Positions 4,926-36,889 of a stretch of DNA of 64,000 bases are shown here, in pieces. The notes beneath the pieces are model-generated. The model had not been told where the DNA came from. It was given only the letters and a program-made list of their open reading frames with translations, and made no database searches. Each line of letters starts with the position of its first letter. The first letter of the stretch is position 1. The DNA is from Candidatus Paracaedibacteraceae bacterium (GTDB taxonomy: Bacteria > Pseudomonadota > Alphaproteobacteria > Paracaedibacterales > CAIOTO01): positions 303,757 to 367,756 of the forward strand of contig JAUYTZ010000018.1 in assembly GCA_030694965.1 (NCBI GenBank), read 5' to 3'. The position numbers and the translations under genes were made by a program.

Positions 4926-5250
4926 GAACTTTTCCTTAAGCTCAAAAAATCAAATTTTAGCTAGTAGCAAAAATTACATTGAAGGTGATTTGTTGCATTA
5001 ACTATATTAAAATTTACACAGATCGTATCTTAGTTATTTGCTTATACATCAAGCGCATATTTTTTTATTAGTAAGTCATGTTTTTGTAAATAATTTCAAT
5101 AACTTTTTGCAAGATTTTTTTAAGAAATTATTTAATAAATTCAACTAAATAAAAAATTGTTTATAAAAATTTTTTAAACTCAGGCAGAGTGGACATAAAT
5201 TGTTGTTTTATGATGAAAACAGTAAATTATTAAAAAAGAATAAAAAGCAT

Positions 5251-5321
5251 TTAGTACACAAGAGAATCTATATTTCTTTTTCCACTTGTGACCAATTAAA
5301 GGCAATGATAGAAATCACTTA
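5251..5321 (+). promoter_or_regulatory. Shared leader/promoter module, copy A (upstream of the oxygenase-LamG-esterase-P450 operon)
   Basis: About 70 nt aligns by hand to the reverse complement of 16678-16748. The core 5282-5310 ccacttgtgaccaattaaaggcaatgata matches in 28/29 positions. It contains a plausible sigma70-type TTGTGA-N17-TAGAAA. Weaker collinear blocks continue to about 5440. Confidence 0.6.
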
Positions 5322-5471
5322 TTCAAAGGCATGTGGGGCGGCAAACCACGAGACAAAAACTCTCTTAATTTTGCTTTATCTTTATCTAGTCCTTAAAAAG
5401 TATTTAAAACCTAAGAAGGTTATAGCAAGTAGCTTATTAAGATATTTGGGGCCTAAAAGGAAAATGAAAAT

Positions 5472-6374
5472 ATGCAAGAAAAAGTTAATATAGATCTTCT
5501 CCTAAAGGCTGCCAGTTCACATTTAATATCTTTCACCGATTTACCGATTTCTCCTGTAATTATTAATGATACATTGAATGTTTCAGAAGAAGACATTCAT
5601 GAAATAGTTGACAGGTACATCAATCATGGTTTTGCAATTGTGCATATTGTTTCAGAACGTCCTTCGCCTGAAACAATAATATCTTTAGGGCACGTTTTTG
5701 AGCTTGGAAAACCTTTTGTTCCTCCTTTATACACTATGGGTGAGTATAAAGCCTCACCCATTGCAAAAATTTCAACACAAGGATGTTCCGCCACTCATCC
5801 AATTTTTCAGCGCGAAGTTGAAGTGAAACTGCATTGCGATGGCACACTACAAAAAATTGGTTTTGTTAAAACAACCGTTATGCTTTGTGAAATGCCTGGT
5901 GCCAAAGGAGGTGAAAATATATTCTTTAATGCCACAGCAGCTTACGCTGAATTGCTAGAAACAGATTTGGATGCTGCAATTGCCATGGCAACCCATGGCT
6001 CGCTAATACGCCAAGCAAACATAAATGGTTGTAGTGATAAAAATATAGGACCAGTTTTTTCTGTAGATAATGGAAAACTTATCTGTAATTATTCTGTGAC
6101 TGAAACGGATAAATTTGTTGCTGCATCTTGTCTTAAAGCTGCTGATCTTGGTCGTGGCGTAGAGTATATGCGAAAAGCTTCCCAACCAGGTGGGGCCCAT
6201 TATTGCCAGGTACGGTTAGAGGCAAATCAAGCTATTATTTTTTCAAATGCTAAACTTGCTCACGGAAGAAAATCATACCATAACGCCCTAGGTTTGAGAA
6301 GATGTCTCTACAGGGGATTATTTTTAAATTATCCAAAAGTGGTTAATAAAAGGCGGTTAAAAATTTCTGTATGA
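5472..6374 (+). CDS. Fe(II)/2-oxoglutarate-dependent oxygenase, TauD/TfdA (clavaminate-synthase-like) family
   Basis: HxD facial triad LHCDG, downstream GGENIFF block (family GGxTxF), distal His/Arg in KLAHGRKSY...RR. Length is about 300 aa. Confidence 0.7.
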   Translation: MQEKVNIDLLLKAASSHLISFTDLPISPVIINDTLNVSEEDIHEIVDRYINHGFAIVHIVSERPSPETIISLGHVFELGKPFVPPLYTMGEYKASPIAKISTQGCSATHPIFQREVEVKLHCDGTLQKIGFVKTTVMLCEMPGAKGGENIFFNATAAYAELLETDLDAAIAMATHGSLIRQANINGCSDKNIGPVFSVDNGKLICNYSVTETDKFVAASCLKAADLGRGVEYMRKASQPGGAHYCQVRLEANQAIIFSNAKLAHGRKSYHNALGLRRCLYRGLFLNYPKVVNKRRLKISV

Positions 6375-6449
6375 TAATGAGATTACCAAAAAAACTCCTT
6401 ATTTTGTATTTATGCAACTTAATGTGTTTTAAAACTATACGAAGTAAAA

Positions 6450-7238
6450 ATGGAGAAGAAAATGAATTTGAATTTAAAAATTAAAGATAAAATTAATCCA
6501 TCAAACCAATCACTGACTTTAAAAGGGGATTGGAATTTTGAAAATGATTTTTTAGATTCTTCTGGGCTAGGAAATGATTTATCTCCAAATAATAGCCCTT
6601 GTCTTATTAAAGATTCTAATTTTTCGGGCGCTGTTAAGCTAGATGGGCGCACACAATCTTTGGAGGGAAAGAACCCAGCGGTGAACACAGAAGGAAGTTA
6701 TACAGTTGCTGCGTGGGTTCGTCTTGATAGCTCGCTTATGAGAGAAGGACTCTCTCTTGAAACCGGAGAATACGCACTAACCGCAATTAGTCAAGATACA
6801 CCTACTCATAGCAACTTTTACTTAGGCCTTCGTCAAGTTGATGAAAAACGATCAGAGAGCATAGTGATTTCTTCATTGAGGTGGAATTTTACGGTGGCGC
6901 CCATTGATGGGACTCAAACAGGTCCTGTTGAATGGCAGCATGCGTATACTAAAAGTCCTCTTGATGATTCAATTTTAGATAAATGGTTTTTACTTGTAGG
7001 TGTGTGTGATGCTGCTGCGAGAACAGCTAGTATATACGTACCCACAATAAATGAAGAAGGGATTATTCATTGGCCAGCTAATTTTATTCAGTTGCCTGCA
7101 AAAGGAGGAATCCAAGTTGGTAAAGGGCGTTGGCTCACAAAAGCTGTTGACCATTGGCCTGGAAGTATAGGGCCAGTTAAGATTTTCTCTGGTGTGATGT
7201 CAAAAGAAGAAGTTTATAAGATTTATAATAATCTTTAA
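6450..7238 (+). CDS. LamG / concanavalin-A-like jelly-roll domain protein (no signal peptide)
   Basis: Typical Laminin_G_3 N-terminal pattern: GDWNFENDFLDSSGLGNDLSP...FSGAVKLDG...SYTVAAWVRLDS. Confidence 0.6.
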   Translation: MEKKMNLNLKIKDKINPSNQSLTLKGDWNFENDFLDSSGLGNDLSPNNSPCLIKDSNFSGAVKLDGRTQSLEGKNPAVNTEGSYTVAAWVRLDSSLMREGLSLETGEYALTAISQDTPTHSNFYLGLRQVDEKRSESIVISSLRWNFTVAPIDGTQTGPVEWQHAYTKSPLDDSILDKWFLLVGVCDAAARTASIYVPTINEEGIIHWPANFIQLPAKGGIQVGKGRWLTKAVDHWPGSIGPVKIFSGVMSKEEVYKIYNNL

Positions 7239-7320
7239 TTTAATAATTTCCGCTGATCTAATTTTTACCTATATAAGAATTAAATTGTGAAATAGAAATG
7301 TTTGAAAGGAACTTTATTTT

Positions 7321-8337
7321 ATGGTGAAAAATATCAATATGGAAGAATCACAAAATTCCTGCAAGGCTGTTTCACACCCGCCTTTTGATGATGAGCTTAA
7401 GCCAATTTTGCATGAAATCCTTAAAAAAATTAAAGTTCCTTTCACTCTTGATCTTATTGACAAGGCTCGCGAAGCTATGAATTTAGGAAGTTTAACAGAC
7501 GATCAAATTCGGCGAGGAGGGGCTTTTGAATTTGAAGAAAAAAAGATTCCAGGTCCTGAAGGAGCGCCAAGCATTTCTGTTATTGTATGTAGACCTAGAG
7601 CAACACCAGGACCCCACCCAGTAATATACAATATACATGGAGGAGGGATGGTTTCTGGAAATTATCGGACTGCAGAACTTGCTAGAGAACTTAATAGAGC
7701 CGAAGCTTTGCAAATGGCTGTAGTTTCAGTAAACTATCGACTAGCTCCTGAAAATCCTGACCCCGCACCAGTTGAGGATTGCTATGCTGCATTAGTTTGG
7801 CTTGTGAAACATTCAAAGTCATTAAAGTTAGATGCAAATCGAATCATTGTTAGTGGTAATAGCGCGGGAGGAGGGTTAGCAGCTGGAGTGGCTCTTTTAG
7901 CTCGCGATAGGGGAGGCCCTTTTTTAATTGGACAGATGCTTCAGTGCCCGATGCTAGATGACAGATGTGACTCTTTCTCAATTAAACAGATGAAAGGGGT
8001 AGGTCTGTGGGAATCGACTTCTAATCTCACAGGCTGGTCAGCCTTGCTAGGAGACAAAAGAGGAACTGAAAGCGTTTCATGTTATGCTGCTCCTGCTCGA
8101 GCCAAAAATTTTTCTGGTCTTCCTCCTGCTTTTATAGACGTAGGTGCTGTCGAAGCTTTAAGAGATGAGGCAGTCTTTTATGCTAATCATATTTGGCAAG
8201 CAGGAGGGGATGCTGAGTTGCATGTTTGGAGCGGCGCTTTTCATAGTTTTGATCAGTGGGCGCCAGATGCTATTGTTTCAAAATCTGCTGACCAAGTTCG
8301 AATAGATTGGATGCGTCGCTTATTAAAACGAAATTAA
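7321..8337 (+). CDS. alpha/beta-hydrolase, hormone-sensitive-lipase-type esterase
   Basis: Oxyanion motif HGGGMVSG, nucleophile elbow GNSAGGG (GxSxG), and downstream Asp and His (HSFD). Confidence 0.85.
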   Translation: MVKNINMEESQNSCKAVSHPPFDDELKPILHEILKKIKVPFTLDLIDKAREAMNLGSLTDDQIRRGGAFEFEEKKIPGPEGAPSISVIVCRPRATPGPHPVIYNIHGGGMVSGNYRTAELARELNRAEALQMAVVSVNYRLAPENPDPAPVEDCYAALVWLVKHSKSLKLDANRIIVSGNSAGGGLAAGVALLARDRGGPFLIGQMLQCPMLDDRCDSFSIKQMKGVGLWESTSNLTGWSALLGDKRGTESVSCYAAPARAKNFSGLPPAFIDVGAVEALRDEAVFYANHIWQAGGDAELHVWSGAFHSFDQWAPDAIVSKSADQVRIDWMRRLLKRN

Positions 8338-8359
8338 AGAAGAAATAAAAGAGGATTTT

Positions 8360-9559
8360 ATGAAACAGTTTCCTTATGCTACCGAATGTTCTTTAAATCC
8401 TAATTGTCTCGTTGATCCTACTTTTCATGCGGCCGGAAATCCTCATGCGCTTTGGTCTTGGATGAGAGAAAATGAGCCAATATATTGGCATGAGCCCACG
8501 AAATTTCCTGGCTTTTGGTCTATTACACGCCATGAAGATATAAGAGAAGTGTATGGGAATCCTGAAATATTTAGTTCAGCTCGGGGTGTTTTATTGCGCC
8601 AAGAAAAATCAGGGGACGACCCCGGCGGCGGCTTAACTTTAGCTTTAACAGATCCTCCTCGCCATAAGCAGCTTCGAGCGATCATGACAAGTTGGTTCTC
8701 AATAAGTTATGCAAAATCTCTTGAAAGCGCTATAAGAAGAAAAATCAAAGAACTTTTACTTGAAGCAGTAGAAAAAAAAGTAATTAATTTTACACACGAT
8801 ATATCATCTAAGTTAACACTCTTCGTCACGTGCCATATTTTAGGTATACCTCCTAAAGATCATAAAGACGTTTTGCATTGGGCTCATGAGTCTTTTGAAA
8901 AGGCAGTTCCTTTAGCCTCTCATAAAGAATTTATGCTATATTTTTGTGAATTAATGGAAAGCAAGCGTGCATGCCCCAGTTCTGATTTAGCGAGTGCTAT
9001 TGTTCATGGCATGATTGATAATAAAAAACTTGCTGAAGAAGAAATATTATTGAACTTTGAGAATTTAATAGGAGCAACAGAAAATGCAGGCTTATCAATA
9101 TCAAGCGGAGTTCTTGCATTTATTGAATACCCAGAGAGCTGGAAATTATTACAGACTGATCGTAAACTTATAATATCTGCTACCGAAGAGATTCTTCGAT
9201 GGGCGTCAAGTGCATCTCATAGTATGAGGACAATTAAAAAGACTTATACTCTTAATAACACTAATTTGTTAGCAAACCAAAAAATAGTACTTTGGCTTCC
9301 ATCTGCGAATAGAGATGATAAAATCTTTGAAAATCCTTTTAAATTTGACATAACACGTACCCCAAATAGGCACATAGCTCTTGGATATGGCGAGCATTTT
9401 TGTATTGGAAATGCTCTTGGTAGAATGCAAATTCGTATATTGCTTGATGAACTTCTCGGCTTTGATTGGATTCTTGAACTTGAAAGTGCACCCATTCATC
9501 TTAGGTCTATTTATGTTAATGGGCCAGAAAATTTACCTATTAGGTTTGTAGATAAGTAA
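8360..9559 (+). CDS. cytochrome P450 monooxygenase
   Basis: Heme-binding loop GYGEHFCIGNALG, ExxR (EEILRW), about 400 aa. The start lies 22 nt after the esterase stop. Confidence 0.9.
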   Translation: MKQFPYATECSLNPNCLVDPTFHAAGNPHALWSWMRENEPIYWHEPTKFPGFWSITRHEDIREVYGNPEIFSSARGVLLRQEKSGDDPGGGLTLALTDPPRHKQLRAIMTSWFSISYAKSLESAIRRKIKELLLEAVEKKVINFTHDISSKLTLFVTCHILGIPPKDHKDVLHWAHESFEKAVPLASHKEFMLYFCELMESKRACPSSDLASAIVHGMIDNKKLAEEEILLNFENLIGATENAGLSISSGVLAFIEYPESWKLLQTDRKLIISATEEILRWASSASHSMRTIKKTYTLNNTNLLANQKIVLWLPSANRDDKIFENPFKFDITRTPNRHIALGYGEHFCIGNALGRMQIRILLDELLGFDWILELESAPIHLRSIYVNGPENLPIRFVDK

Positions 9560-9579
9560 TCTTACAGATTGAGTATTAA

Positions 9580-10362
9580 TTATCTCTTCACAAATTGGCA
9601 TAGTTTTTTATGAATGAGCTGAGGGCTAGCAATGATTCCAGTTCCGAGTGGAGTTATGATCCCTCCAGCTTCTTGCACAATAAGGGAGCCCGCAGACCAA
9701 TCCCAAGGAGATAGTTCATTTTCATAAAATCCATCAAAGCGACCACATGCAACCCAACAGAGATCTAAAACTGAGCTTCCACAACTCCTTATATCCCTTA
9801 CTTTTAGAAGTAGATCTGACATGATTTTCGTTTGATATAAGCGTTTTCTACGATTGTAAGAATATTCAGTTGATAGCAGAGCCTCGGAAAAGTCTTTTAT
9901 TTCATTTACTGCTATTTTGGAGTCATTAAGAACAGCACCATTATTTTTTATGGCTGAAAAGATCTCATTTCTTGCAATGTCATAAATAACTCCAACCTTA
10001 GGCTTCCAACACCACCCATCAAATTCTTCGCATGAGATACTAACTGCCCAGTGTGGAATTTTGTATATATAATTTATTGTTCCATCAAGTGGATCAAAAA
10101 CCCACCTCAAGCCGGTTTTAGACTTGATGTTAGTTCCTTCTTCTCCAATGATGCCATCATTGGGTCTTGCTTGCATTATGATATTTTTGATGACTGTTTC
10201 ACCTAATTTATCTGCGTCTGTGATCGGATTTGTATTGTCCGATTTAAATTCAACCTGTATTGGATGCGCATAAGATAAGATTTTTTGCCCTGCAGAAATA
10301 GCAGCTTTTGTGGCTAGTTCTAGTAATTCATTTTCATCATTGTTCGTCATACTACCCTTCAC
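9580..10362 (-). CDS. inositol monophosphatase family protein (SuhB-like)
   Basis: IMPase motifs IGEEG, DPLDGTINY and WDWSAG. Confidence 0.85.
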   Translation of the reverse strand: MKGSMTNNDENELLELATKAAISAGQKILSYAHPIQVEFKSDNTNPITDADKLGETVIKNIIMQARPNDGIIGEEGTNIKSKTGLRWVFDPLDGTINYIYKIPHWAVSISCEEFDGWCWKPKVGVIYDIARNEIFSAIKNNGAVLNDSKIAVNEIKDFSEALLSTEYSYNRRKRLYQTKIMSDLLLKVRDIRSCGSSVLDLCWVACGRFDGFYENELSPWDWSAGSLIVQEAGGIITPLGTGIIASPQLIHKKLCQFVKR

Positions 10363-10561
10363 TTTTAATCAACAGTTTGTTTTCTTTCATCACCTATTCA
10401 GTAGCCTGTTATAGCCGGGCTTATCCGGTTGCACTTTATCAGTTTAAGATAAATATTCTATCGTTTTTTAGGGCAGCGGATGATAGGATGATTAGGCATA
10501 ATAATATCAATTTTAAAGTTTCTCATTTGTATTTCCTTAGTATTTATATAATACACAATTA

Positions 10562-13500
10562 TTACGGGAGAGACCAATTAAGGATTTGTTCAAGGTATTG
10601 CTCAAAATATTTAGCAATATTTTGGATGCAGCTGTCAGAAATCAAACTTGAGCGCCATGATATAATAAGGCATAAGTTTCCATTTTCTTTTGGCCATATT
10701 TCAGCATGAAGTTCCAGAGGTAGTTCTAGGTAAGGTTGGCGAATAAACTCTGTTTTTAATTCTTTTAAAACTAATTTAGGAGACGGGTTGTCTTGAAGGG
10801 CAAAAAGCGTTTGAAACAAAGGGGGTCTTCCAGTTTTTTGTGACTTTATTATCTGTAAAATCTGCGTCAATGGAATATCTTGATTTGCTAATGAGCGTTG
10901 GATAAGGCGACTCGTTTCTTTTAGTCCTAAAATCCCATTTTTAAATATTTTTTTCGTTATTCTAGGGAAAAGCATATTTAAATGACAATTTATTGTATTT
11001 TTATTTATAAAGTGATTACGTTGTCTTATTGGAATGCCAACACAAAAATCGGTTTGACTCGTGACTTTTTTTAAAGCATGGATCCATGCGTGAAAGAGCA
11101 CCTCAAATCGACTAACTCTATTTTTTAAAGCAAACTCGTCAATAATTTCTGTTTTTGCGCTAAGAATAAGTGTGACGTTTTCTGCATGTAAATTAAAATC
11201 GTTTTGAGGTTTATTAAAATTTTGTGGCCATATAATTTCTGGGGTGCCCTCAAGATTTTTAGAAAAATCTTTCACTTCTTTTAATACCTCAATATCTAAG
11301 CTTGGATAGATTGATAAAGGAGAGATCAATTTTGAGCTTTTGTAGTGATTTGAAAAATTAGGAGAGTTAGAAAATATATTATACCCCTCTGATAGGCTTT
11401 CTGCCAATAAGTGTTCAGAATAACCATCGAAAGCTATATGATGGATAGCGCAGCCAAAAAAATACTCTTTGGAATTAGCAAGGGAAATGACCGCTGTTTT
11501 CCAAATTTTTCCTTCAAGTGGATTGAGATCTTTTGAAAGTTCTGAGCGTAAACTATTTACTGCAAATTCTGCTGATTCCTCACTTGGTAAAATTTCTAAG
11601 ACAGGAAAGGGAACAGATGTGCTTTTGTCACTAGAATCAAAATCAAGTAAGTATTTAGATCTCAATGATTTGTTATTAATATGAACATAGTTTATAGCTT
11701 CTTTTAGAATGCTCAAGCTTAAATCACCTTCTATTTTCCAAGTCATCAGGCACCTTGATGCAAGATTTGATGGATTAACAAGATGCTGAGTTAAATACAT
11801 TAATTGCATTTGATTCATTTTATTACTATCAAAATACACGTGCATATTAACATTGTTTTGATTATCCTTTAAAAATTCACCTAAAGAACTAATTGTGTGG
11901 TGTTTGTAAATTTTTGATAAAGAAATAGAGCAATTAAGCTCTTTGCCAAGCCGTGAACACAACTGTCCCATATTAAGAGAATTTAATCCTAGTTGACTGA
12001 ATGGAACATCTACAGGGAAATAATCTTGGTTTAAAATTTGGCTTAGTATTTTCCCTATAGTTTTTTCTATCGGAGTTTTATAGCTTTCATTTGAGTGATA
12101 CGTGTTGTTTTTTGTTTCTAACATTGACGATTCAATTAATGCTTGTTCATCAAGTTTACCTTGCGGAGTCAGTGGAAATGAGTCGACAGGTATCACCTTC
12201 GATGGGCATTGATAAGCTACTAGTTTGGATTTTAATTGCTGATGTGCGTCATGTAACTTATCGCCTAACTTTAAGGGGATGCAAAAAGCTATTAATTCTT
12301 GTGATGTTGTTGTTGGGTTGTTTTTGGAAACTACTCTGCAAGATTTGATATTATGCAAGTGTTGTTCGATTTGATGTTCGACATCTGAAAGCTCAATCCG
12401 ATGGCCGTGAACTTTAACTTGACGATCATTTCGACCGTGGAAATGTAATAAATTATTTTTCCAAAAACCTAAATCACCTGTAGAATAAACCCTTTTGGTA
12501 ACACCTTCTATTGCAATTTCTTTAAATTTATTATGTGTTAATCGTGGGTCATTGAGATATCCAATTGCTAACCCAGTGCCGTTAATGTAAATCTGACCTA
12601 CTTCATCATCAGCGCAAATTTCCATTTTTTCATTTAAAATATACACTTGCGTTTGTGGAACTGGTGTGCCAATTGGAATTCCAGATGAAATTTCACAGTC
12701 GCTTAAGCTGATATGGTGAGTTGTAGTAAAAATAGTGCTTTCAACAGGACCGTAACCATTTATAAGTTTTATTTGAGGATGACGAGTTAAAAAAAGTTTC
12801 ACATGTGTAGGCGAAAGCCGCTCTCCACCGATCATGAGTTGCTTAAGTCCTGTAAATGAATTTATGTCATCTTCAACACTTATATTAAATAGGCTGCTTG
12901 TTATCCAGGCTGTATTAACTCCATACTTACTGATTCCTTTTCGAAGTTCCGCAGAAGAAAGATAAGGTTCATCTATTAGCCATGCTGACCCACCATTAAC
13001 TAAAGCCCCCCACAACTCAAGAGAAAGTGCATCCCAAGGTAATGCAGCAGCTAGAGGAATAATGGTGCTAGAATTAAAATCAACAAAATTATTTTCTTTA
13101 AATAGCCTCATTGTTCCTTTATGTGTAGAGATAACGCCTTTTGGCTCTCCGGTAGTGCCTGAAGTGAAGAAAACTGTGGAAGGAGACGAAGGGTTGACGT
13201 CTATGCTTGGAAATGTTTTTTCTATTGTGTTATGCGGAATTATAGGTGGTAAGATATTGATCCCATTAAAAGATGATGACTTATTTTTAGTGATTATAAA
13301 CTTTGGTTTTAGTGCATTTATAACTTTTTGTATTCTGCTTTTTGGCCAGCATGGATCAATAAGTGTATAGGCTGCGCCTGCTTTAAGAACAGCAAGTAGC
13401 GATATAACTAAGCTTGGTGACCTTGGAAGTAAAATTGGCACAAAAGATCCTATATCCACTCCGCTACTTATTATTTGGTTTGCCAGAAAGGAAGCAGAGT

Positions 13501-13651
13501 TATTTAATTCATAATATGATAATTTTTTTTCTTTCCATATGAGAGCTGTAGCTTTGGGGGTTCTATGAGCATGACTTTCGAACGCAAAATGTAGGGAATT
13601 AAAACCCTCTAGTTGTTTGTTTGATAGTTTATTTTTGCTTTTTTGTAACAT
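10562..13651 (-). CDS. Non-ribosomal peptide synthetase, single module A-T-C (terminal condensation domain, no TE/R)
   Basis: A-domain cores: LKAGAAYTLIDP (A2), FFTSGTTGEPKGV (A3), NGYGPVEST (A5), YSTGDLG (A7), GRNDRQVKVHGHRIEL (A8), PLTPQGKLD (A10). T domain LGLNSL (Ser558). C domain HHIAFDGYS (His737/His738, Asp742). Confidence 0.92.
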   Translation of the reverse strand: MLQKSKNKLSNKQLEGFNSLHFAFESHAHRTPKATALIWKEKKLSYYELNNSASFLANQIISSGVDIGSFVPILLPRSPSLVISLLAVLKAGAAYTLIDPCWPKSRIQKVINALKPKFIITKNKSSSFNGINILPPIIPHNTIEKTFPSIDVNPSSPSTVFFTSGTTGEPKGVISTHKGTMRLFKENNFVDFNSSTIIPLAAALPWDALSLELWGALVNGGSAWLIDEPYLSSAELRKGISKYGVNTAWITSSLFNISVEDDINSFTGLKQLMIGGERLSPTHVKLFLTRHPQIKLINGYGPVESTIFTTTHHISLSDCEISSGIPIGTPVPQTQVYILNEKMEICADDEVGQIYINGTGLAIGYLNDPRLTHNKFKEIAIEGVTKRVYSTGDLGFWKNNLLHFHGRNDRQVKVHGHRIELSDVEHQIEQHLHNIKSCRVVSKNNPTTTSQELIAFCIPLKLGDKLHDAHQQLKSKLVAYQCPSKVIPVDSFPLTPQGKLDEQALIESSMLETKNNTYHSNESYKTPIEKTIGKILSQILNQDYFPVDVPFSQLGLNSLNMGQLCSRLGKELNCSISLSKIYKHHTISSLGEFLKDNQNNVNMHVYFDSNKMNQMQLMYLTQHLVNPSNLASRCLMTWKIEGDLSLSILKEAINYVHINNKSLRSKYLLDFDSSDKSTSVPFPVLEILPSEESAEFAVNSLRSELSKDLNPLEGKIWKTAVISLANSKEYFFGCAIHHIAFDGYSEHLLAESLSEGYNIFSNSPNFSNHYKSSKLISPLSIYPSLDIEVLKEVKDFSKNLEGTPEIIWPQNFNKPQNDFNLHAENVTLILSAKTEIIDEFALKNRVSRFEVLFHAWIHALKKVTSQTDFCVGIPIRQRNHFINKNTINCHLNMLFPRITKKIFKNGILGLKETSRLIQRSLANQDIPLTQILQIIKSQKTGRPPLFQTLFALQDNPSPKLVLKELKTEFIRQPYLELPLELHAEIWPKENGNLCLIISWRSSLISDSCIQNIAKYFEQYLEQILNWSLP

Positions 13652-13718
13652 TTCTCGACTTCACAAAATATAAAAATGAATATCAGATATTGATTTTATT
13701 ATTAAAATTTTTTTAAGT

Positions 13719-14978
13719 TCATGTTGAGATTCCAGCCGTATTTCTTAGATTAAATTCTGGATTTAAATTATATATTAACACGACATTTTTACTCACTCGA
13801 TCTACCTCTTTGTATACAGCTGAAGCATATTTATCTGAGAATTTAGGAATTGAATTTAAAACCTTACATTCTTCAATTTCTTTATCACTAAACGGAAGCG
13901 CCATACCGATAAGAGGGTAAATCTCTATCGCAGCATGAGTATCAAACTGCTTGGTGCGTTGTGAATCTAAAATTTCATTTGCTTCATTGAGTTCAAGCCC
14001 TACAATCAGTGTATCTTTGCCATTTACAAATCCACGCGCAATACCTAAATGCCCTTTTAAATAACTCATTACTTTTCTTCGATCTTCCATAAAATCTAAA
14101 TAAAGAGAGTTCGCTTCAACATCTCCGAAGCAATGGGCCAATTCAACATCAGGTGAAGGCCATTTCATAAGAAATCGACGGTAGTTGAGAGTTTCGGTCT
14201 TACGATTTTCTTCGGGATCGCGGGCATGTGGAAGGTGAATAGCCCTCACTTTTTCAGAAAGAATAATAGGGATTTTATTTTTGCATATCCGGTAACTCCA
14301 TTCCAGATCATCAACGCCCCAACCCTGAAAAGTTTCATCGAAATATAGATCTAGTTCTCGAACTACCTCAAGCGGTAAAGCAATAAAACCCGTCCACCCA
14401 AATGCCCATGGAATAACGTGCCTCACTTGAAAACGTGGATCTTTTGGTTTTCCTGTAGAGTTTTCAAGATCCATTATAGCATCTTGATAGTTTTCGTAAG
14501 GTTTTACTTGAACACTTTCTATAAAGCCTTCATTGTTATTTTCGTAGCCAATAACTTGTCCAACAACGCATATTCTTTGTTCGAACGCAAAGTGAGTGTC
14601 ATAGAGGTTTTGCAAAGCATTTGGTGGTAAAAGCGTGTCTGCATCCATTTGTACAATAACTTGGCCGGTGGCTTGGCGCATTGCAAGGTTTCTTGCCCAA
14701 GGAATCATAAAATTATCAGGAGACAAGACTGTAATAATATTAATTTTATTTATGTACTTATTGCATAAAGAGATGAGGTTCTCGCAATAATCCATGGCTC
14801 CAATAATTACTTCAAAGTCATCTTTATGCATTGTTTGATGGGCTAAGGCTTCTAAAACTACAGCAATATTTTCTAATCTTTGTTTGTACGGAATTGAAAC
14901 ACTTAGCTTTTTTTGATTTATTTTCCCCCTTACTATTTTATGTGAGACGTTAAACTGCTCTTTAAAATTTAGCTTCAT
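13719..14978 (-). CDS. family 2 glycosyltransferase (GT-A fold) with extra C-terminal domain
   Basis: LSVSIPY N-terminal strand, DxD motif QMDADT, GWGVDDLEWSYR block as in the galactosyltransferase-like C-terminal region. About 130 additional C-terminal residues are unassigned. Confidence 0.75.
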   Translation of the reverse strand: MKLNFKEQFNVSHKIVRGKINQKKLSVSIPYKQRLENIAVVLEALAHQTMHKDDFEVIIGAMDYCENLISLCNKYINKINIITVLSPDNFMIPWARNLAMRQATGQVIVQMDADTLLPPNALQNLYDTHFAFEQRICVVGQVIGYENNNEGFIESVQVKPYENYQDAIMDLENSTGKPKDPRFQVRHVIPWAFGWTGFIALPLEVVRELDLYFDETFQGWGVDDLEWSYRICKNKIPIILSEKVRAIHLPHARDPEENRKTETLNYRRFLMKWPSPDVELAHCFGDVEANSLYLDFMEDRRKVMSYLKGHLGIARGFVNGKDTLIVGLELNEANEILDSQRTKQFDTHAAIEIYPLIGMALPFSDKEIEECKVLNSIPKFSDKYASAVYKEVDRVSKNVVLIYNLNPEFNLRNTAGIST

Positions 14979-15032
14979 TATGTTGCTCCTTTTTAATTAA
15001 CTTGTTCTACAAAGAATTATTTTAATTATGGG

Positions 15033-15455
15033 TTATAGGCCAAATATCACTGTTCCACGTTCGTCTGCTTTCAAAGCAGGATTGTATATAATTTCCCAAA
15101 TATGATCATCTGGATCTGCTACGTATCCTCGAATTCCTCCATGTGGAGGGGCATCAGCAACTCTCAGAATTTTACCGCCATAATTTGATAGTATATTAAT
15201 ATATTTTTTAACTTCATCGGGCGATTTAACAAGATAAGCAAGTGTAATACTCCCACCTCTCGGCAGCTTAGATTTTGTTACGTCTTTTTCCAACTCAGAT
15301 TGCAGCCAAGTGCTAAGAATAAAACCATTCATTTGGTACATCGCCGTATTATCATCTTCTTTAACGGGAGTCCAACCAAAGCCTTTGATGTAAAATTTTT
15401 TGGAAAGGCTTAAATCCTGCACACCTAAAGTTATAATTGCTATTTGTTGCTTCAT
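15033..15455 (-). CDS. VOC (glyoxalase / bleomycin-resistance) family protein
   Basis: IITLGVQDLSLSKKFYIKGFGW N-terminal beta-alpha-beta-beta-beta module and C-terminal DPDDHIWEI. The ATG at 15455 is preferred over the TTG at 15467. Confidence 0.75.
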   Translation of the reverse strand: MKQQIAIITLGVQDLSLSKKFYIKGFGWTPVKEDDNTAMYQMNGFILSTWLQSELEKDVTKSKLPRGGSITLAYLVKSPDEVKKYINILSNYGGKILRVADAPPHGGIRGYVADPDDHIWEIIYNPALKADERGTVIFGL

Positions 15456-15490
15456 AATCAAATCCAAATTATATAATTATTGTTTTATTA

Positions 15491-16567
15491 TCAGTTATTT
15501 TTGAAATCTTCCATAACTTCTCTTATGACTTTTTGAGCCAATGAGTTTTCTACGTTGTTTGAATTAGATAACCCTGCTGATATAATAAGTGCTTTCCAAA
15601 AAGCCCAAGCGCGACCTCGATGCCATGTTCTATTGTCAATAGCAAGTCGGTCACGAAATACTTTGCGGCTTTTAGCATCAAAAAATGTCCACGCAATAGC
15701 AAAGTCACAAGCTGGATCACCAACAGAAAGTAATCCAAAGTCTATAACAGCTCTCAGGTGCCCATTTTGCAAAATTAAGTTGCCAGGGCTAATATCACCA
15801 TGAACCCAAACTGGGGGATTCTCCCATTTAGTTGTTGCTCCTAAATCCCAAATTCTTTTGGCTACTTTGCTGTCTAAGGAGGATTCAAGCACTTTAATGG
15901 CATTGATTGCCTCATGCTCATAGACTGAAATATCTCCTCCGCGATAGTAATTTTGCTTGCCAGCTGGAGGTCCGTTTGTGGGGTTCATTTTATATAACAC
16001 AGAAAGGAATCTTGCAAGATCATTCGCAAGCTTGTTTTTATCAGCCTGTTTGCTGATTGCTGCTGTTTCACCAGGAATCCAATTATAAATTGACCAATCC
16101 CACATGTAACCATGACCAGGTTTTCCTAGGCCAAGAGGTGTAGGTATTGTAAGAGGAAGCTTAGAAGAGAGAAATGGAAGCCATTTTTGTTCTTTTTTTA
16201 CTTGGTTGGCATATGATTCGCCACTAGGAAACCTTAATATCATTTCTTGACCAAGATGATAGGTTCTGTTATCCCATCCGCTTTCATTTACTGGAACAAT
16301 GGGTAAATGAGCCCAATGAGGAAATTGTTCTTCAACAAGAATTTTAGCGGTTACTGGATCAATAATATCTTTCATATTTTCTCGGTTTAAGCTCATACTT
16401 CTCATATTAATAATTCTACTTTTTTGAAAACAATTACTTCCTAAATTTAATAATTTAAAAGGTCCTGCACATGTATGTTTTGGCATTACAATTATTCCAA
16501 AAGATATAATAGAGAAACTTAGAATTGAAATAAACCATTTGCTAGTTTTTTGCGCTATGTAAAACAT
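15491..16567 (-). CDS. aminoglycoside-phosphotransferase-fold (APH/choline-kinase family) kinase; start uncertain
   Basis: Catalytic loop HGDISPGNLIL and VIDFG...GDPACD, with an N-lobe GWDNRTYHLG. The first ~30 codons are hydrophobic (KWFISILSFSIISFGIIVM). The real start may be an internal Met, for example at 16375. Confidence 0.8.
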   Translation of the reverse strand: MFYIAQKTSKWFISILSFSIISFGIIVMPKHTCAGPFKLLNLGSNCFQKSRIINMRSMSLNRENMKDIIDPVTAKILVEEQFPHWAHLPIVPVNESGWDNRTYHLGQEMILRFPSGESYANQVKKEQKWLPFLSSKLPLTIPTPLGLGKPGHGYMWDWSIYNWIPGETAAISKQADKNKLANDLARFLSVLYKMNPTNGPPAGKQNYYRGGDISVYEHEAINAIKVLESSLDSKVAKRIWDLGATTKWENPPVWVHGDISPGNLILQNGHLRAVIDFGLLSVGDPACDFAIAWTFFDAKSRKVFRDRLAIDNRTWHRGRAWAFWKALIISAGLSNSNNVENSLAQKVIREVMEDFKNN

Positions 16568-16677
16568 TCTAATAGCAACCTTTCTAAGTTTGAGGTGCCT
16601 CTAAGGACTGTGTGAAGACAAGGTCAAATGTAAGAAAATATTCTTTCTATCAATTTGATATGCCTAATATTTTTTTA

Positions 16678-16748
16678 TGAGTGATTATTATCATTGCCTT
16701 TATTTGGTCACAAGTGGAAAAGGGAATTTAAATTCTCTTAAGTATTAA
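16678..16748 (-). promoter_or_regulatory. Shared leader/promoter module, copy B (upstream of the kinase-VOC-GT2-NRPS operon)
   Basis: The reverse complement aligns to 5251-5321. Core 16689-16717 reads ccacttgtgaccaaataaaggcaatgata on the minus strand, with TTGTGA-N17-TAATAA. Collinear blocks (aggcat, agtcctta, ttagaaaggtt) continue down to about 16570. Confidence 0.6.
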
Positions 16749-17104
16749 GGCGCTATCAATTCTTACTTTAATCTTAAGAGCATGCTTGTTTGTATTTTAA
16801 TTTTTTGCGTTTATGTAAAGTGAAATGGTGAACACTAAAAAGAATGTAGTATGTAAATGCCACATGGGGTTTTTTGGAAAAAATTATCATGTTAAGGATT
16901 GTAGGTCATTAGAATGTAAATAAAATGTTGCTTTTTCTGAGTTTGAACTTCCATTTTAAATAAATTGCAATTTAAACCGCAATTTAATCTGCGATGCAGT
17001 TATTTTAAAATTAAAATTAAAATTAAAAAAATATTAAAAATTCAACCTATATAAAAATAACGACGTGGTACATTTTTCTTAGTGATAAAACGATTATTAA
17101 TGCT

Positions 17105-18721: not shown

Positions 18722-19028
18722 TCATATTTCTTGGTTCTGTAAATTAGCTTTTTAAAAATTGTGATGAAAATTTTTAGACACATCAATAATGTTCTTAATA
18801 TGTAAGCGAACAAGCATTTCTTTTTCTAATTGTTGTGCATTAACAGCAGTGATAAAAATCAGTTATCTCTAAATGTACATGAAGCAGCAAATTGTAAAAA
18901 AGGACCTTATTGTTCTTTTCTTTTACTTTTATTTATCGGAAGACATTTTATAAGAGACTAATCATATTTGTATGATTTTTTGATAAAAACTTAATTGCAA
19001 AATAAATGCATCATTAAAAGGAAACAAG

Positions 19029-21431
19029 ATGAAAATAATTTTTACTTTCTTTTTTTTATTATTGAGCATAGAAAATGCATGTTTTTGCAAAGATCAAAAA
19101 GCTGATAACGTTAATGTTAAAATTGATTCCGTTCACATGGGGTTGATGGAAAATGATATCGCTCCATCAGATTTTTCTTTAAAAATAAAGTTTACCAACC
19201 ATGGCCCTAGCATTTCTAATTGGCATTTTGGATTTTATATAGCAGGTGCTCCTCTTTCAAAGTTTAAAAATGGACTTCAAGACTTTAATCCTAGAATTAT
19301 TAGGCGAATTTGTGACAGTCACAATCGTTGTTCCTCATTAAAATATGAGAAAGCTTGTTCTCTAACTAATGCAGATTTGAGCCAAGGATACACAGCAATC
19401 CATGCGTCCGAAAATGATTTAGTGCTGTTAAGCAAAGAAACTTACACAATTGAGCTGTTACACATTAATCAATGGGGAGGAGAGAGTATTTCTTATTTCC
19501 CACAAAATTTTTTCCTTTTATTAAATAATATTAATAATAAATCAAAAATAGAATTTGATGTATATTCGTTAGATACAAATTTAAATAGTTACAAGTTAAT
19601 TGGATATGATCAAAATAAAGTTGACTCTATAATTTCAACGCAGATTGCAAAAAATTGGGGTAAGAGTAAAGAAAAAAATAAAGATGAGGCTTCCATTGAA
19701 GTTATTCCGAGTCCAGTTAAATTTAACTTAAAAAAAGAAAAGTGTAGATTTTCAGAGAAAAATATAACTGTTTTTAACCAATTTAATAAAAATGATAAAA
19801 TTGCAAAACATATAATCAAACGCCTCAAAAACAAAACTATGCTTCAAACAAAAAACCAAAAAAATCTATTATCTTCTACTCCTATTATAATTAAGCAACT
19901 AAAAAGTCCAAAAATTATAAAAAATAATCCTGAAGGGTATGTCTTAGAAATTGACACATCTAAGATTATTATAAGTGCTATCACGGAGGCGGGGGTGTAC
20001 TATGCTCTGCAAACATTTACGCAACTTTGGACTTTTGCTAAAAAAGATTTTGGTGTCACGGTGATGCCGCAAATGAAAATTATAGATTATCCTAGATTTC
20101 CATATCGCGGAATCTTATTAGACACTGCTCGGCACTTTTTTAGTGTTAAAGAAATTAAATCCTTTATTGACATAATGGGTGCTCATAAGCTTAATGCACT
20201 TCATTTGCACCTTTCTGATGATGAAGGGTTTAGAGTAGGCCTGCCTTCCTATCCTTCAATTGAAGCTACAGGTAATAGACGTAAGTTTGGTTTAGTTATG
20301 GGACCTATGATGTTGTCACAAGAAAACCTTTATCCAACATACAAAGGACATGACTTTGTACGAGCAAATACAGATTATCGTGGGACATATAGTGCAGATG
20401 ATATTTCAGAAATAGTTCGTTATGCAAATTTGAATCAAATAACTGTGATTCCAGAAATAGATTTTCCCGCACATGCTAGAGCCTTAATTAAGTCTTTGCC
20501 ATCTATTTTTGTAGATCCTGCTGATGTTTCTGAATATTTGTCTCTTCAAGGTTATTGGGATGATGTATTACCTGTTTGCACATACAATACTAATATTTCA
20601 GTTGGTGAAAAATTCACAAATACAGTAAATAATATTATTAATTATATTGTTAAAATATTTGATAATCAAACAACGGTTTATGCAAATCGTAATGAAATTA
20701 GTCTTGGGGGCGACGAAGTGAGCCCAAATGCATGGACTAATTCTCCAAGTTGTAAAAATAACTGGTCTAGCTTAACAGCTTTGCAGAAATCTCATAAATT
20801 TTTTGCAGAGATAGCAAAAACAAATCCTCAACTTATGCTTTCTGGGTGGCAGCAGTTTGTGCAAACTGACTCAATCGATATGGGAAAGGATATCGTCCCT
20901 GCTAAACAAGTAGGTCATGTGTGGGTATGGAGTCAATCGAAAATTGGGATACCTGAAGCTATTAGGCTTATTGAGAATGGATTCCCAACAGTTTTAGCAT
21001 TTTCGGATAAAACTTACTTTGATCTTGTGTACAGCCCAGATGTAAAAGAATCAGGTTTTGCGTGGGCAACAAGCTGGAGCGATACCTATACAGCGTTTTC
21101 AATCATTGAGGCTGCAAACCATATATTAGACAATTCAAAGTCATTTAATAAGCTTTTAGGTTTAGAAGGTGCACTTTGGTCAGAGCACATTCCAAGCTAT
21201 GATCAATTAATATATATGGCTCTTCCTAAAATGGCTGGGCTTTCTGAAGCAAGCTGGTCCCCTCGTGAATTTACAGTTCAGAAACAAAGGCTGAATTGGC
21301 AAAGTCTTGCTAGGCGTTTAGGGTGCGGCAAACAAGGCTTCCTTGCGTACTTAAATCAATCTTTTGGTGTTCAATATCGCGGATATCCTCGTGGCATTCA
21401 TTTGGAAGTTCCTAAGTGCATTTGTCATTAA
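19029..21431 (+). CDS. secreted beta-N-acetylhexosaminidase (GH20, chitobiase-like)
   Basis: Signal peptide MKIIFTFFFLLLSIENA. GH20 catalytic-domain blocks RGILLDTARHF, HLHLSDDEGFR and the catalytic pair in ISLGGDEV. The long N-terminal extension is consistent with accessory domains. Confidence 0.85.
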   Translation: MKIIFTFFFLLLSIENACFCKDQKADNVNVKIDSVHMGLMENDIAPSDFSLKIKFTNHGPSISNWHFGFYIAGAPLSKFKNGLQDFNPRIIRRICDSHNRCSSLKYEKACSLTNADLSQGYTAIHASENDLVLLSKETYTIELLHINQWGGESISYFPQNFFLLLNNINNKSKIEFDVYSLDTNLNSYKLIGYDQNKVDSIISTQIAKNWGKSKEKNKDEASIEVIPSPVKFNLKKEKCRFSEKNITVFNQFNKNDKIAKHIIKRLKNKTMLQTKNQKNLLSSTPIIIKQLKSPKIIKNNPEGYVLEIDTSKIIISAITEAGVYYALQTFTQLWTFAKKDFGVTVMPQMKIIDYPRFPYRGILLDTARHFFSVKEIKSFIDIMGAHKLNALHLHLSDDEGFRVGLPSYPSIEATGNRRKFGLVMGPMMLSQENLYPTYKGHDFVRANTDYRGTYSADDISEIVRYANLNQITVIPEIDFPAHARALIKSLPSIFVDPADVSEYLSLQGYWDDVLPVCTYNTNISVGEKFTNTVNNIINYIVKIFDNQTTVYANRNEISLGGDEVSPNAWTNSPSCKNNWSSLTALQKSHKFFAEIAKTNPQLMLSGWQQFVQTDSIDMGKDIVPAKQVGHVWVWSQSKIGIPEAIRLIENGFPTVLAFSDKTYFDLVYSPDVKESGFAWATSWSDTYTAFSIIEAANHILDNSKSFNKLLGLEGALWSEHIPSYDQLIYMALPKMAGLSEASWSPREFTVQKQRLNWQSLARRLGCGKQGFLAYLNQSFGVQYRGYPRGIHLEVPKCICH

Positions 21432-36189: not shown

Positions 36190-36230
36190 GAATAGCGATT
36201 ATTGTGTGATCGGACATAAGCGAGTGTTCT

Positions 36231-36516: not shown

Positions 36517-36889
36517 AAGTTAGCCTTCATCGTAATATTTAGCTTGTGCATTATAATAAGATGCCTTGGCGCTCGTGTGATAAAGTGCCTTTATATTAAT
36601 CTTCCTTGAATTTTTTAGTATGATTCATAATCGCCCTGGCAGCATCTTCAGGGCATAAATTACCCACCACTTTTATCTCAAAAAAATATGGATGAGAGAT
36701 TGAATGTAGAGGGCTCATATCTTCAGAATCCATTGGATTGGTAGACTTCCGTCTCTTTCTTCTTTTTGGCTAAGTTAGATGTTTTAAATGCTGATCTTTA
36801 TTAATTAACGTCAGTTCGATGTAATGGAATATGAGACCTATTGATTTTTAAGGCGTGGAATCATAAAATTCTTTGAAATTAAGACAATT

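What the first reader, a model, noticed from the sequence alone, without database searches (positions are those of the whole stretch)
5251..16748. Two operons of the cluster share a homologous ~70-190 nt upstream leader/promoter module, and no regulator gene is in sight
Seen. Region 5251-5321 lies upstream of the plus-strand oxygenase operon. Region 16678-16748 lies upstream of the minus-strand kinase-to-NRPS operon. By hand, the two align as reverse complements over about 70 nt with roughly nine mismatches. The core is ccacttgtgaccaaTtaaaggcaatgata (5282-5310) versus ccacttgtgaccaaAtaaaggcaatgata (reverse complement of 16689-16717), which is 28/29. Further collinear blocks follow at similar spacing toward each start codon: aggcat, agtcctta, and t(a/t)agaa(a)ggtt just before the start. 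The conserved module may therefore be about 190 nt long, running 5251 to ~5440 and 16748 to ~16570. Each copy has the same orientation relative to its downstream operon. The core contains a plausible promoter (TTGTGA-N17-TAGAAA in one copy, TAATAA in the other). Inference: the two operons share a duplicated promoter plus 5' leader, implying co-regulation through one operator, leader RNA or riboswitch-like element. This is notable because no transcription factor gene is visible in the cluster. An alternative reading is that the inverted copies are substrates for inversion of the 11.4-kb segment between them.
Basis: seen in the sequence. Interest (0 to 1): 0.7.

Follow-up and report, generated by a model that had tools for sequence, protein, structure and literature searches.

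The report
Thrice-repeated promoter cassette in a biosynthetic cluster
Three transcription units of an orphan NRPS/PKS gene cluster in an uncultured amoeba-symbiont-type bacterium (Paracaedibacteraceae) each carry a copy of the same ~120-195-nt non-coding upstream cassette, most likely a duplicated promoter/operator plus leader that couples their expression; this is a useful regulatory lead but a known kind of thing.

Summary
The two inverted copies (5251-5327 and 16672-16748; 77 nt, 83%; 29-nt core 28/29) are the longest inverted repeat in the window. The similarity continues collinearly for about 195 nt: A = 5229-5423 (+), B = 16772-16575 (-). I found a third, more diverged copy, C (18785-18929, +), upstream of the GH20 gene. 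All three point at the adjacent gene start. No other copy lies in the 64 kb window.

Three copies align without any indel from about -70 to +1 of an inferred promoter (TTGTGA-N17-TAGAAA with a TG extension). The TGAT-N4-ATCA palindrome is invariant. Indels start only in the leader. No RNA reading is supported: there are no Rfam hits, folding is no better than shuffles, and consensus-structure z-scores are insignificant. There is no conserved ORF. No regulator or recombinase domain was found in the window.

Orthologous clusters (TauD 58-75% identical) lack the cassette, so it is lineage-specific.

Best reading: a duplicated, probably factor-dependent promoter/operator plus 5'UTR cassette ("promoter propagation"). 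The genome-wide copy number could not be checked, because the MAG is not in the scannable collections and my relaxed scans used a mis-registered pattern. Interest is modest.

The parts
5229..5423 (+). Cassette copy A, upstream of the TauD-like dioxygenase operon (ATG 5472). The cassette ends about 50 nt before the start codon.
   Evidence: Local alignment with B: score 67 against shuffles 17 +/- 2.3. nhmmer 5231-5423.
16575..16772 (-). Cassette copy B, upstream of the kinase-glyoxalase-GT2-NRPS(-IMPase) operon (ATG 16567). The cassette runs up to the SD-like AAGG, 9-11 nt before the start codon.
   Evidence: The kinase start at 16567 is supported by a conserved signal-peptide-like N-terminal extension in homologues.
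18785..18929 (+). Cassette copy C (diverged; 62% to A and 60% to B over 120 nt), upstream of the GH20 hexosaminidase gene (ATG 19029).
   Evidence: nhmmer E = 1.3e-7. Shuffle tests. Three-way alignments.
5282..5310 (+). 29-nt core of copy A. It spans the inferred -35 (TTGTGA, 5286-5291), a 17-nt spacer and the start of the inferred extended -10 (TG 5306-5307, TAGAAA 5309-5314).
   Evidence: A 28/29 match is unusual given 66% overall identity (permutation p = 0.0018).
16689..16717 (-). 29-nt core of copy B (inferred -35 TTGTGA 16713-16708; inferred -10 TAATAA 16690-16685).
   Evidence: The permissive promoter scan reports TTGTGA-18-AATAAT here.
18822..18863 (+). Core of copy C (TTGTTG 18830-18835; TGATAAAAATCA 18850-18861). 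It matches the three-copy pattern TTTTCNANTTGTNNNNNANTAANNGCANTGATANNAATCANT.
   Evidence: the pattern hits A, B and C with 0 mismatches, and no shuffle of the window matches.
5306..5317 (.). Palindrome TGAT-N4-ATCA over the inferred -10/+1. It is invariant in all three copies (also 16682-16693 and 18850-18861). Candidate operator.
   Evidence: 7 occurrences in the window against 2.3 +/- 1.6 expected; three of the seven are the cassettes.
5260..5279 (.). Upstream box AAGnGAA-N6-TTyCyTT (imperfect dyad; B 16739-16720, C 18804-18823). It is followed by a T-rich tract abutting the inferred -35. Its centre lies 42 bp from the centre of the TGAT-N4-ATCA palindrome in every copy. Candidate activator or UP-like site.
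   Evidence: Three-way alignment without indels. Coordinates.
5472..9559 (+). Transcription unit downstream of A: TauD-like dioxygenase, LamG-like protein, alpha/beta hydrolase, P450.
   Evidence: Pfam; ORFs.
9580..16567 (-). Transcription unit(s) downstream of B: APH-type kinase, glyoxalase-fold protein, GT2, NRPS (A-T-C), then an IMPase-like gene after a 200-nt gap.
   Evidence: Pfam; ORFs.
19029..21431 (+). GH20 gene downstream of C. A GH20 gene also sits next to the homologous NRPS in related locus L002, so it probably belongs to the cluster.

Best explanation
The element is a lineage-specific, thrice-duplicated promoter/operator-plus-5'UTR cassette, an instance of 'promoter propagation'. 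It sits in front of three non-homologous transcription units of one orphan hybrid NRPS/PKS gene cluster in a Candidatus Paracaedibacteraceae MAG.

Inferred working:
- RNA polymerase starts near 5320, 16679 and 18864 from a weak sigma-70-type promoter (TTGTGA/TTGTTG, 17-nt spacer, TG-extended TAnnAA).
- A trans-acting protein encoded outside the 64 kb window binds the invariant TGAT-N4-ATCA dyad over -10/+1, the conserved AAGnGAA-N6-TTyCyTT box at about -50, or both.
- The three units are thereby switched together.
- The 110-165-nt leaders were carried along by the duplication and are decaying.

Shown: homology of the three copies, their positions and orientation, the conservation and indel pattern, the absence of coding or RNA-structure signal, and the absence from orthologous clusters.

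Inferred: that it is the active promoter, the position of the transcription start, and that a regulator binds.
For: 1. There are three homologous copies, each ending 8-100 nt before a start codon and oriented toward it. The downstream genes are non-homologous (TauD, APH kinase and GH20 families).
2. The copies are cluster-restricted within the window: none lies in the other ~45 kb or in any other intergenic region of the cluster.
3. From about -70 to +1 the three copies align with no indel at only 60-68% identity. Indels begin right after the inferred +1. This is the pattern expected when protein-DNA spacing is constrained and the transcript is not.
4. Conservation is heterogeneous. The A/B core is 28/29 against 66% overall (permutation p = 0.0018). 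The 42-nt three-copy pattern is unique to the cassettes.
5. The TGAT-N4-ATCA dyad is invariant in all copies, and its right half is not required by a plain -10 element.
6. The cassette is non-coding: B and C have stop codons in every frame.
7. There is no RNA-family, thermodynamic or covariation support for an RNA element.
8. In A the cassette carries a relic of B's SD-like AAGGTT with no start codon after it, while the last ~20 nt before the TauD ATG match the orthologues' own SD region. This fits a promoter+leader copied in front of a pre-existing gene.
9. The A-B pair meets the published identity criterion for such duplicated upstream regions, at least 50 nt at at least 80% upstream of non-homologous CDSs (PMC3488235).
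Against: The sigma-70 consensus match is mediocre. Only B passes a permissive scan, and promoter-like matches are no more frequent than in shuffles.

There are no transcription data. No candidate regulator was identified. The dyad is not a distinctive match to a known operator: the FNR-type box scores 8/10, equalled at 210 window positions, and the Fur box scores 13/19 only in B.

Genome-wide copy number is unknown. The MAG is not in the scannable collections, and the exact core gave 0 hits in genome and metagenome collections. My relaxed second scans used a pattern with one N too many and are uninformative.

Gene conversion rather than selection could explain the near-identical A/B core.

The cassette is absent upstream of TauD in orthologous clusters. 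It is therefore not an ancestral, indispensable control element of this cluster type.
Confidence: 0.55

Rival explanations
1. The cassette is a member of a dispersed intergenic repeat family of this genome (a MITE/REP-like or IS-derived element, possibly with an outward promoter). Three members happen to lie in the cluster, and co-regulation is incidental or absent.
For: The genomes of these symbionts carry IS elements: there is an IS1595 fragment at 56551-56886, and IS insertions lie between PKS and TauD in relatives L005 and L006. The cassette is lineage-specific and absent from orthologous loci. Genome-wide copy number could not be measured.
Against: No copy lies in the remaining ~45 kb of the window, which has about 20 intergenic regions. 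No terminal inverted repeats or flanking target duplications were seen at the cassette ends. There is no similarity to the IS sequences in the window or in the fetched loci, nor to plasmids. All copies abut a gene start in the sense orientation. Conservation is concentrated in an internal block rather than at the termini.
Confidence: 0.17
2. The conserved part acts as RNA. Possible forms are a shared 5' leader (riboswitch, attenuator or protein-binding leader), if transcription starts upstream of the core, or an antisense or small RNA.
For: The leaders are long, about 110-165 nt. A and B share collinear leader blocks beyond chance. AGGCA recurs 2-3 times in A and B. RNAalifold on A/B pairs GUGACC of the core with GGUU(A/G)(U/C) at the SD-like block, with z = -1.6. 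The antisense strands of A and B fold at z = -2.6 and -2.5.
Against: There is no Rfam hit at E <= 10 for any copy. Sense leaders and whole cassettes fold no better than shuffles. The antisense structures of A and B differ, and C antisense gives z = +0.5. Three-copy consensus energy is only -2 to -4 kcal/mol, with z about 0. Copy C does not keep the A/B leader blocks, while it does keep the indel-free upstream part. No terminator-like hairpin is present.
Confidence: 0.1
3. The inverted copies A and B are substrates for inversion of the 11.4 kb segment between them, either by site-specific recombination or by homologous recombination.
For: They form the longest inverted repeat in the window and share a 29-nt near-identical core.
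Against: No recombinase, invertase or integrase domain was found in the window; the only mobile-element gene is an IS1595 transposase fragment 40 kb away. Both promoters face inward, so inversion within the cassette would regenerate the same promoter-operon pairs and switch nothing. A third, directly oriented copy C does not fit an invertible switch. The independent Logan assembly is 100% identical and collinear over 2072-26567, so only one isomer is seen, although it may derive from the same reads.
Confidence: 0.03

Closest known systems
Putative mobile promoters / 'promoter propagation' (Matus-Garcia, Nijveen & van Passel 2012, PMC3488235)
   Same: Homologous non-coding sequences lie immediately upstream of non-homologous CDSs within one genome, and the flanking genes are not duplicated. 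The A/B pair reaches the paper's threshold of at least 50 nt at at least 80% identity (77 nt, 83%).
   Different: The best-conserved block lies 105-221 nt from the start codons, largely outside that pipeline's -150..-50 window. Copy C is below the 80% threshold. All copies serve one biosynthetic cluster, rather than being scattered. The leader down to a relic SD was copied too.
Shared operator or activator boxes of pathway-specific regulators in biosynthetic gene clusters, e.g. SARP heptamer repeats at -35, or Fur boxes in siderophore clusters (named from general knowledge, not tested)
   Same: Several operons of one cluster carry the same cis element at a fixed position relative to the promoter, which gives coordinated expression.
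   Different: Here the shared unit is a 120-195-nt homologous cassette related by descent, not just a convergent 15-25-bp motif. No cluster-situated regulator gene is present. The Fur box is not matched in A or C (11/19).
CRP/FNR-family boxes (TTGAT-N4-ATCAA)
   Same: TGAT-N4-ATCA is the inner 8 of the 10 consensus positions and is invariant in all three copies.
   Different: The outer positions do not match. An 8/10 match occurs at 210 window positions. The dyad overlaps the inferred -10/+1, not the -41.5 position of class II activation. Whether the genome encodes such a regulator is unknown.
Riboswitch or cis-regulatory leader families (Rfam)
   Same: The 5' regions are long and repeated upstream of functionally linked operons.
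   Different: There is no Rfam match, no thermodynamic signal and no covariation. The most conserved part lies upstream of the inferred transcription start.
Invertible promoter or DNA switches flanked by inverted repeats (fimS-type, shufflon-type)
   Same: A pair of inverted repeats brackets a DNA segment.
   Different: The repeats are 11.3 kb apart and enclose ten genes with inward-facing promoters. There is no recombinase nearby. Only one orientation is observed. A third copy lies in direct orientation.

Membership tests
Putative mobile promoter (PMC3488235) | Upstream regions align over at least 50 nt with at least 80% identity | tested here: met
   A/B: 77 nt at 83%. Not met for C (62% and 60% over about 120 nt).
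Putative mobile promoter (PMC3488235) | Downstream and upstream flanking CDSs are not homologous (only the promoter region is duplicated) | tested here: met
   Downstream genes are TauD, APH and GH20 families. Upstream neighbours are a PKS and a 538-aa membrane protein with no Pfam domain. No repeat extends into the coding regions.
Putative mobile promoter (PMC3488235) | The homologous stretch lies in the 100 nt between -150 and -50 of the translation start | tested here: not met
   The 77-nt block lies at -221..-145 in A and -181..-105 in B. Only the weaker leader similarity falls inside the window in both copies.
Sigma-70 promoter | -35 and -10 hexamers close to TTGACA/TATAAT at 16-18 nt spacing | tested here: inconclusive
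   The hexamers are TTGTGA-17-TAGAAA (A), TAATAA (B), and TTGTTG-17-TAAAAA (C), each with TG one base upstream. Only B passes the permissive scan, and such matches are not above chance in these regions.
Sigma-70 promoter | Mapped transcription start downstream of the -10 | not testable with these tools
   No transcript data are available for this MAG.
Riboswitch / structured cis-regulatory leader | Match to a described RNA family | tested here: not met
   Rfam 15 gave nothing at gathering threshold, and nothing meaningful at E <= 10 on each of the three regions.
Riboswitch / structured cis-regulatory leader | Conserved secondary structure supported by stability and covariation | tested here: not met
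   Single-sequence z = +0.55, -0.25 and -0.58. Alifold against column shuffles gives z = -1.6 (A/B) and +0.2 (A/B/C). Power is low with only three sequences.
Invertible DNA switch | Site-specific recombinase encoded nearby | tested here: not met
   No recombinase, invertase or integrase Pfam domain was found among the window ORFs scanned.
Invertible DNA switch | Both orientations present in the population | tested here: inconclusive
   One independent assembly (Logan SRR13727522) is collinear and identical over 2072-26567.
MITE / IS-derived repeat | Terminal inverted repeats, target-site duplication and many dispersed copies | tested here: inconclusive
   No TIR or TSD was seen at the cassette ends. 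Only three copies lie in the 64 kb window, all in the cluster.
Fur box | Good match to GATAATGATAATCATTATC at the promoter | tested here: not met
   The score is 13/19 in B only. A and C reach 11/19, a score equalled at 925 window positions.
CRP/FNR-type box | TTGAT-N4-ATCAA dyad, typically centred near -41.5 for activation | tested here: inconclusive
   The inner TGAT-N4-ATCA is invariant, but the 8/10 score is common (210 positions). The dyad lies over the inferred -10/+1.

The most novel reading that the evidence does not exclude
The cassette is a self-contained regulatory unit of a new type, used by a reduced endosymbiont genome in place of a cluster-situated regulator. Two forms are possible. 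It could be a leader or antisense RNA that senses a pathway intermediate; the weak A/B pairing of the core GUGACC with the SD-proximal GGUU block and the z of about -2.5 for the antisense folds would be its first traces. Or it could be the operator of an undescribed DNA-binding protein (for instance one of the window's domain-less proteins) that binds the TGAT-N4-ATCA dyad and the -50 box four helical turns apart.
Probability: 0.08. Interest if true: 0.6.

Novelty: new member of a known kind. Interest (0 to 1): 0.3.

Why it matters
The cassette gives a concrete, testable handle on how an orphan NRPS/PKS cluster is controlled in an uncultured, probably intracellular alphaproteobacterium. A 42-nt signature defines the putative regulon. 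It also adds the GH20 gene to the co-regulated set, which helps to delimit the cluster. For heterologous expression, it says that three promoters would need replacing. More generally it is a clean example of a promoter+leader being copied within a gene cluster to wire units together. It does not challenge current concepts.

Tried and rejected
1. Rfam was run at gathering threshold on the whole window, and at E <= 10 on each of the three regions. It found only tRNAs and noise.

2. RNA folding was tried on leaders, whole cassettes and both strands, together with alifold against column-shuffle nulls. There was no consistent signal. The z of about -2.5 for antisense A and B is not shared by C, and the two structures differ.

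3. A conserved small ORF or leader peptide was rejected, because B and C have stops in all frames.

4. Public-collection scans:
   - The exact central 23-mer (one N) gave 0 hits in genome contigs and metagenome contigs, so the MAG itself is not in those collections.
- My relaxed second scans contained a register error (TTGT-N6-A instead of TTGT-N5-A). The pattern did not match even the window copies. The three metagenome hits, L009-L011, are chance.
   - The corrected pattern found nothing in viral contigs.
   - A blastn search of copy A against plasmids found nothing.

5. Orthologous loci were fetched through TauD homologues (L005-L008, 58-75% identity), kinase homologues (L002-L004) and homologues of the 538-aa protein (L013-L015). 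None carries the cassette. Their intergenic regions are too diverged to show a clean insertion boundary; only the SD region aligns. They have no analogous repeated promoter of their own.

6. I tried to reach the DNA left of the window, where the promoter of the ABC/PPTase operon lies. The PKS protein is not on record, and the TauD look-up returned only the 26.6 kb Logan contig.

7. Fur-box and FNR-box readings of the dyad are not distinctive. Hand checks against sigma-54, ECF, sigma-32, CtrA, LexA, IHF, ArgR and BirA consensus sequences recalled from memory gave no convincing match. These were not formal tests.

Full report
**Source and setting**

The window comes from a MAG annotated at NCBI as Candidatus Paracaedibacteraceae bacterium. 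Window proteins are 100% identical to NCBI entries on a 368 kb contig, for example hypothetical protein Q8S21_05485. GC content is 37%.

The left 21 kb holds an orphan hybrid cluster:
- an ABC exporter (partial), a PPTase and a PKS (KS-AT-ACP, minus strand);
- a plus-strand unit: TauD-like dioxygenase, LamG-like protein, alpha/beta-hydrolase, P450 (5472-9559);
- a convergent minus-strand unit: APH-type kinase, glyoxalase-fold protein, GT2, NRPS (A-T-C), IMPase-like protein (16567-9580);
- a 538-aa membrane protein with no Pfam domain (17105-18721);
- a GH20 hexosaminidase (19029-21431).

**Check of the observation**

The inverted repeat 5251-5327 / 16672-16748 (77 nt, 83%) is the longest in the window. 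The 29-nt core occurs exactly twice within 3 mismatches, against none in shuffles. Over 5251-5321 there are 11 mismatches in 71.

A local alignment of the two whole intergenic regions scores 67, against 17 +/- 2.3 for dinucleotide shuffles. It runs for about 195 nt: A = 5229-5423, B = 16772-16575. The part downstream of the 77-nt arm is significant by itself (19 against 9.0 +/- 1.4; 0 of 1000 shuffles). The parts further upstream, toward the divergent genes, are not similar.

The mismatch count is 11, not about nine. The last block is next to the start codon only in B.

**A third copy**

A profile of A+B finds a third copy, C, at about 18785-18929 (+), between the 538-aa gene and GH20 (nhmmer E = 1.3e-7). 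C aligns collinearly to both A and B, with scores of 32 and 30 against shuffles of about 16-17 +/- 2.5, reached by 1 and 0 of 1000 shuffles.

A three-copy profile run without filters finds nothing else in the window at E <= 100. In particular it finds nothing upstream of the PKS, the 538-aa gene, the IMPase-like gene or the SDR gene. The 42-nt pattern shared by all three copies is unique to them. A GH20 gene also lies next to the homologous NRPS in related locus L002, so C probably marks another member of the cluster.

**Anatomy**

Pairwise identity over about 120 nt is 68% (A-B), 62% (A-C) and 60% (B-C). Despite this divergence, the three copies align without a single indel from about 5251 to 5321. 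Indels start immediately after that point.

The invariant positions are TTArTA, AAGnGAA-N6-TTyCyTTTTC, TTGT, AnTAA and GCAnTGATAnnAATCAnTnA. They can be read as follows:
- a T-rich tract abutting a weak -35 (TTGTGA or TTGTTG);
- a 17-nt spacer;
- a TG-extended -10 (TAGAAA, TAATAA or TAAAAA);
- a 12-bp dyad, TGAT-N4-ATCA, covering -10 to about +1. This dyad occurs 7 times in the window against 2.3 expected, and three of the seven are the cassettes.

The centre of the upstream imperfect dyad lies 42 bp, or four helical turns, from the centre of TGAT-N4-ATCA in every copy. This comes from direct reading of the coordinates.

The A/B core identity of 28/29 is unusual given 66% overall identity (permutation p = 0.0018). 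This points to selection, or to a short gene-conversion tract.

**What it is not**

- *Not coding.* B and C have stop codons in every frame.
- *Not a described RNA.* Rfam gives nothing at gathering threshold or at E <= 10.
- *Not a structured RNA, as far as can be measured.*
  - The leaders fold at z = +0.55, -0.25 and -0.58.
  - Whole cassettes on the sense strand give z = +0.13, +0.06 and -1.0.
  - The antisense strands of A and B reach z of about -2.5, but with different structures, and C antisense gives +0.5.
  - Consensus structures are weak and no better than column-shuffled alignments, with z = -1.6, -0.8, +0.2 and -0.1.
  - With only three sequences the power is low, so the RNA reading is unsupported rather than excluded.
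- *No terminator-like hairpins*.
- *No terminal inverted repeats or target duplications* at the cassette ends, and no similarity to IS sequences or plasmids.

**Regulators and recombinases**

Pfam scans covered 40 ORFs across the window, most of those of at least 100 aa. They found no helix-turn-helix regulator, sigma factor, response regulator or site-specific recombinase. The only mobile-element gene is an IS1595 transposase fragment at 56551-56886.

The ABC, PPTase and PKS genes at the left end were not scanned here. Their orthologues in L005 carry only ABC, ACPS and PKS domains. The SDR, PFK, carbonic-anhydrase and DnaJ genes were identified from the precomputed Pfam annotation of the identical Logan contig. 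The 630-aa ORF 27223-29115 was not scanned.

Small ORFs in the two largest gene-poor stretches show nothing regulator-like by eye. Six proteins have no domain hit: 17105-18721, 35584-36189, 40766-41920, 43614-44744, 52958-53554 and 60783-62273.

**Comparative evidence**

Orthologous clusters were fetched through TauD homologues (75%, 71% and 58% identity; L005/L006, L007, L008). They keep the PKS<->TauD divergent arrangement but lack the cassette.
- L007 and L008 have a 270-nt intergenic region, against 546 nt here.
- L005 and L006 have an IS inserted there.
- Only the ~20 nt around the TauD Shine-Dalgarno sequence align.

In loci with the homologous kinase-glyoxalase-GT2-NRPS block (L002, L003), the kinase lies inside a longer operon. 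None of these loci has an analogous internal promoter repeat.

The cassette is therefore a recent, lineage-specific acquisition. In A it carries a relic of B's SD-like AAGGTT with no start codon following it, and it sits 50 nt upstream of TauD's own conserved SD. This suggests that a promoter+leader like B's was copied in front of TauD. That step is inference.

**Limits**

The MAG is not in the scannable genome or metagenome collections. The exact 23-nt core gave no hit. The DNA left of the window could not be fetched.

The sigma-70 match is mediocre. Only B passes a permissive scan, and such matches are not enriched over shuffles. The Fur-box and FNR-box readings of the dyad are not distinctive.

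**Inversion**

The Logan assembly of SRR13727522 is identical and collinear with the window from 2072 to 26567, so the same isomer is seen. Because both promoters face inward, recombination within the cassette would not change any promoter-gene pairing. Together with the lack of a recombinase and the directly oriented copy C, this makes the switch reading very unlikely.

**Verdict**

The finding is a real, cluster-restricted (within the window), three-copy non-coding cassette. The best-supported explanation is a duplicated, probably factor-dependent promoter/operator with its 5'UTR. It matches the published concept of promoter propagation / putative mobile promoters (PMC3488235) and wires three units of one biosynthetic cluster together (confidence about 0.55).

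The rivals are a dispersed repeat family (about 0.17), an RNA-level element (about 0.10) and an inversion substrate (about 0.03).

It is a new member of a known kind. Interest is modest (0.3).

Noticed in passing
window 15491-16567 (-): The APH-type kinase has a ~57-residue N-terminal extension that looks like a signal peptide. It is conserved in homologues from similar clusters (P0004, P0005, P0006, P0009). The NCBI protein (P0001, 301 aa) starts 57 codons downstream. This points to a likely start-codon mis-annotation and a possibly exported kinase.
   Followed up: partly
window 36230-36283 and 36464-36517: A 54-nt inverted repeat, 93% complementary and 180 nt apart, lies in a gene-poor 1.1 kb stretch. 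It sits next to a short ORF (36890-37159) that looks like a transposase fragment. It may be a MITE or IS remnant.
   Followed up: no
window 61120-61980 (within ORF 60783-62273) and 40788-41075 (within ORF 40766-41920): There is a long tandem array of 9-nt units (about 60 registers) and six 36-nt tandem repeats. Both lie inside large ORFs that have no Pfam domain, so these are repeat-containing proteins of unknown function.
   Followed up: no
L005 8184-9576 and L006 7451-8843: In the closest relatives (TauD 75% identical), IS-type transposase genes (DUF772/DDE_Tnp_1) are inserted between the PKS and TauD genes. This is exactly where cassette A sits in the window, so this intergenic region is a hotspot for rearrangement.
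   Followed up: partly
L002 8634-18342; L003 604-7294: The block kinase-glyoxalase-GT2-NRPS(A-T-C) is conserved in other metagenomic contigs. It is preceded by a pyrimidine-nucleoside phosphorylase-type gene and an aminotransferase, and in L002 it is followed by GH20. This hints at a conserved core pathway, possibly nucleoside- or aminosugar-related.
   Followed up: no
L008 14738-14838 and 18703-18803 (also 14590-14626 and 18573-18609): Two different minus-strand genes, an AhpC/redoxin-like gene and an SDR, share a ~100-nt stretch (75%) covering their 5' ends and about 25 nt upstream. This may be a shared N-terminal or signal region, or another duplicated 5' module.
   Followed up: no
window 16001-20000: This region has the lowest GC in the window (29-30% against about 37%). 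It spans cassette B, the domain-less 538-aa membrane protein and cassette C. Homologues of the 538-aa protein are only 39-46% identical and lie in unrelated contexts.
   Followed up: partly
window 56551-56886: An IS1595-family transposase fragment (111 aa) lies in a 1.4 kb stretch of short ORFs next to rpsT (57200-57472).
   Followed up: no
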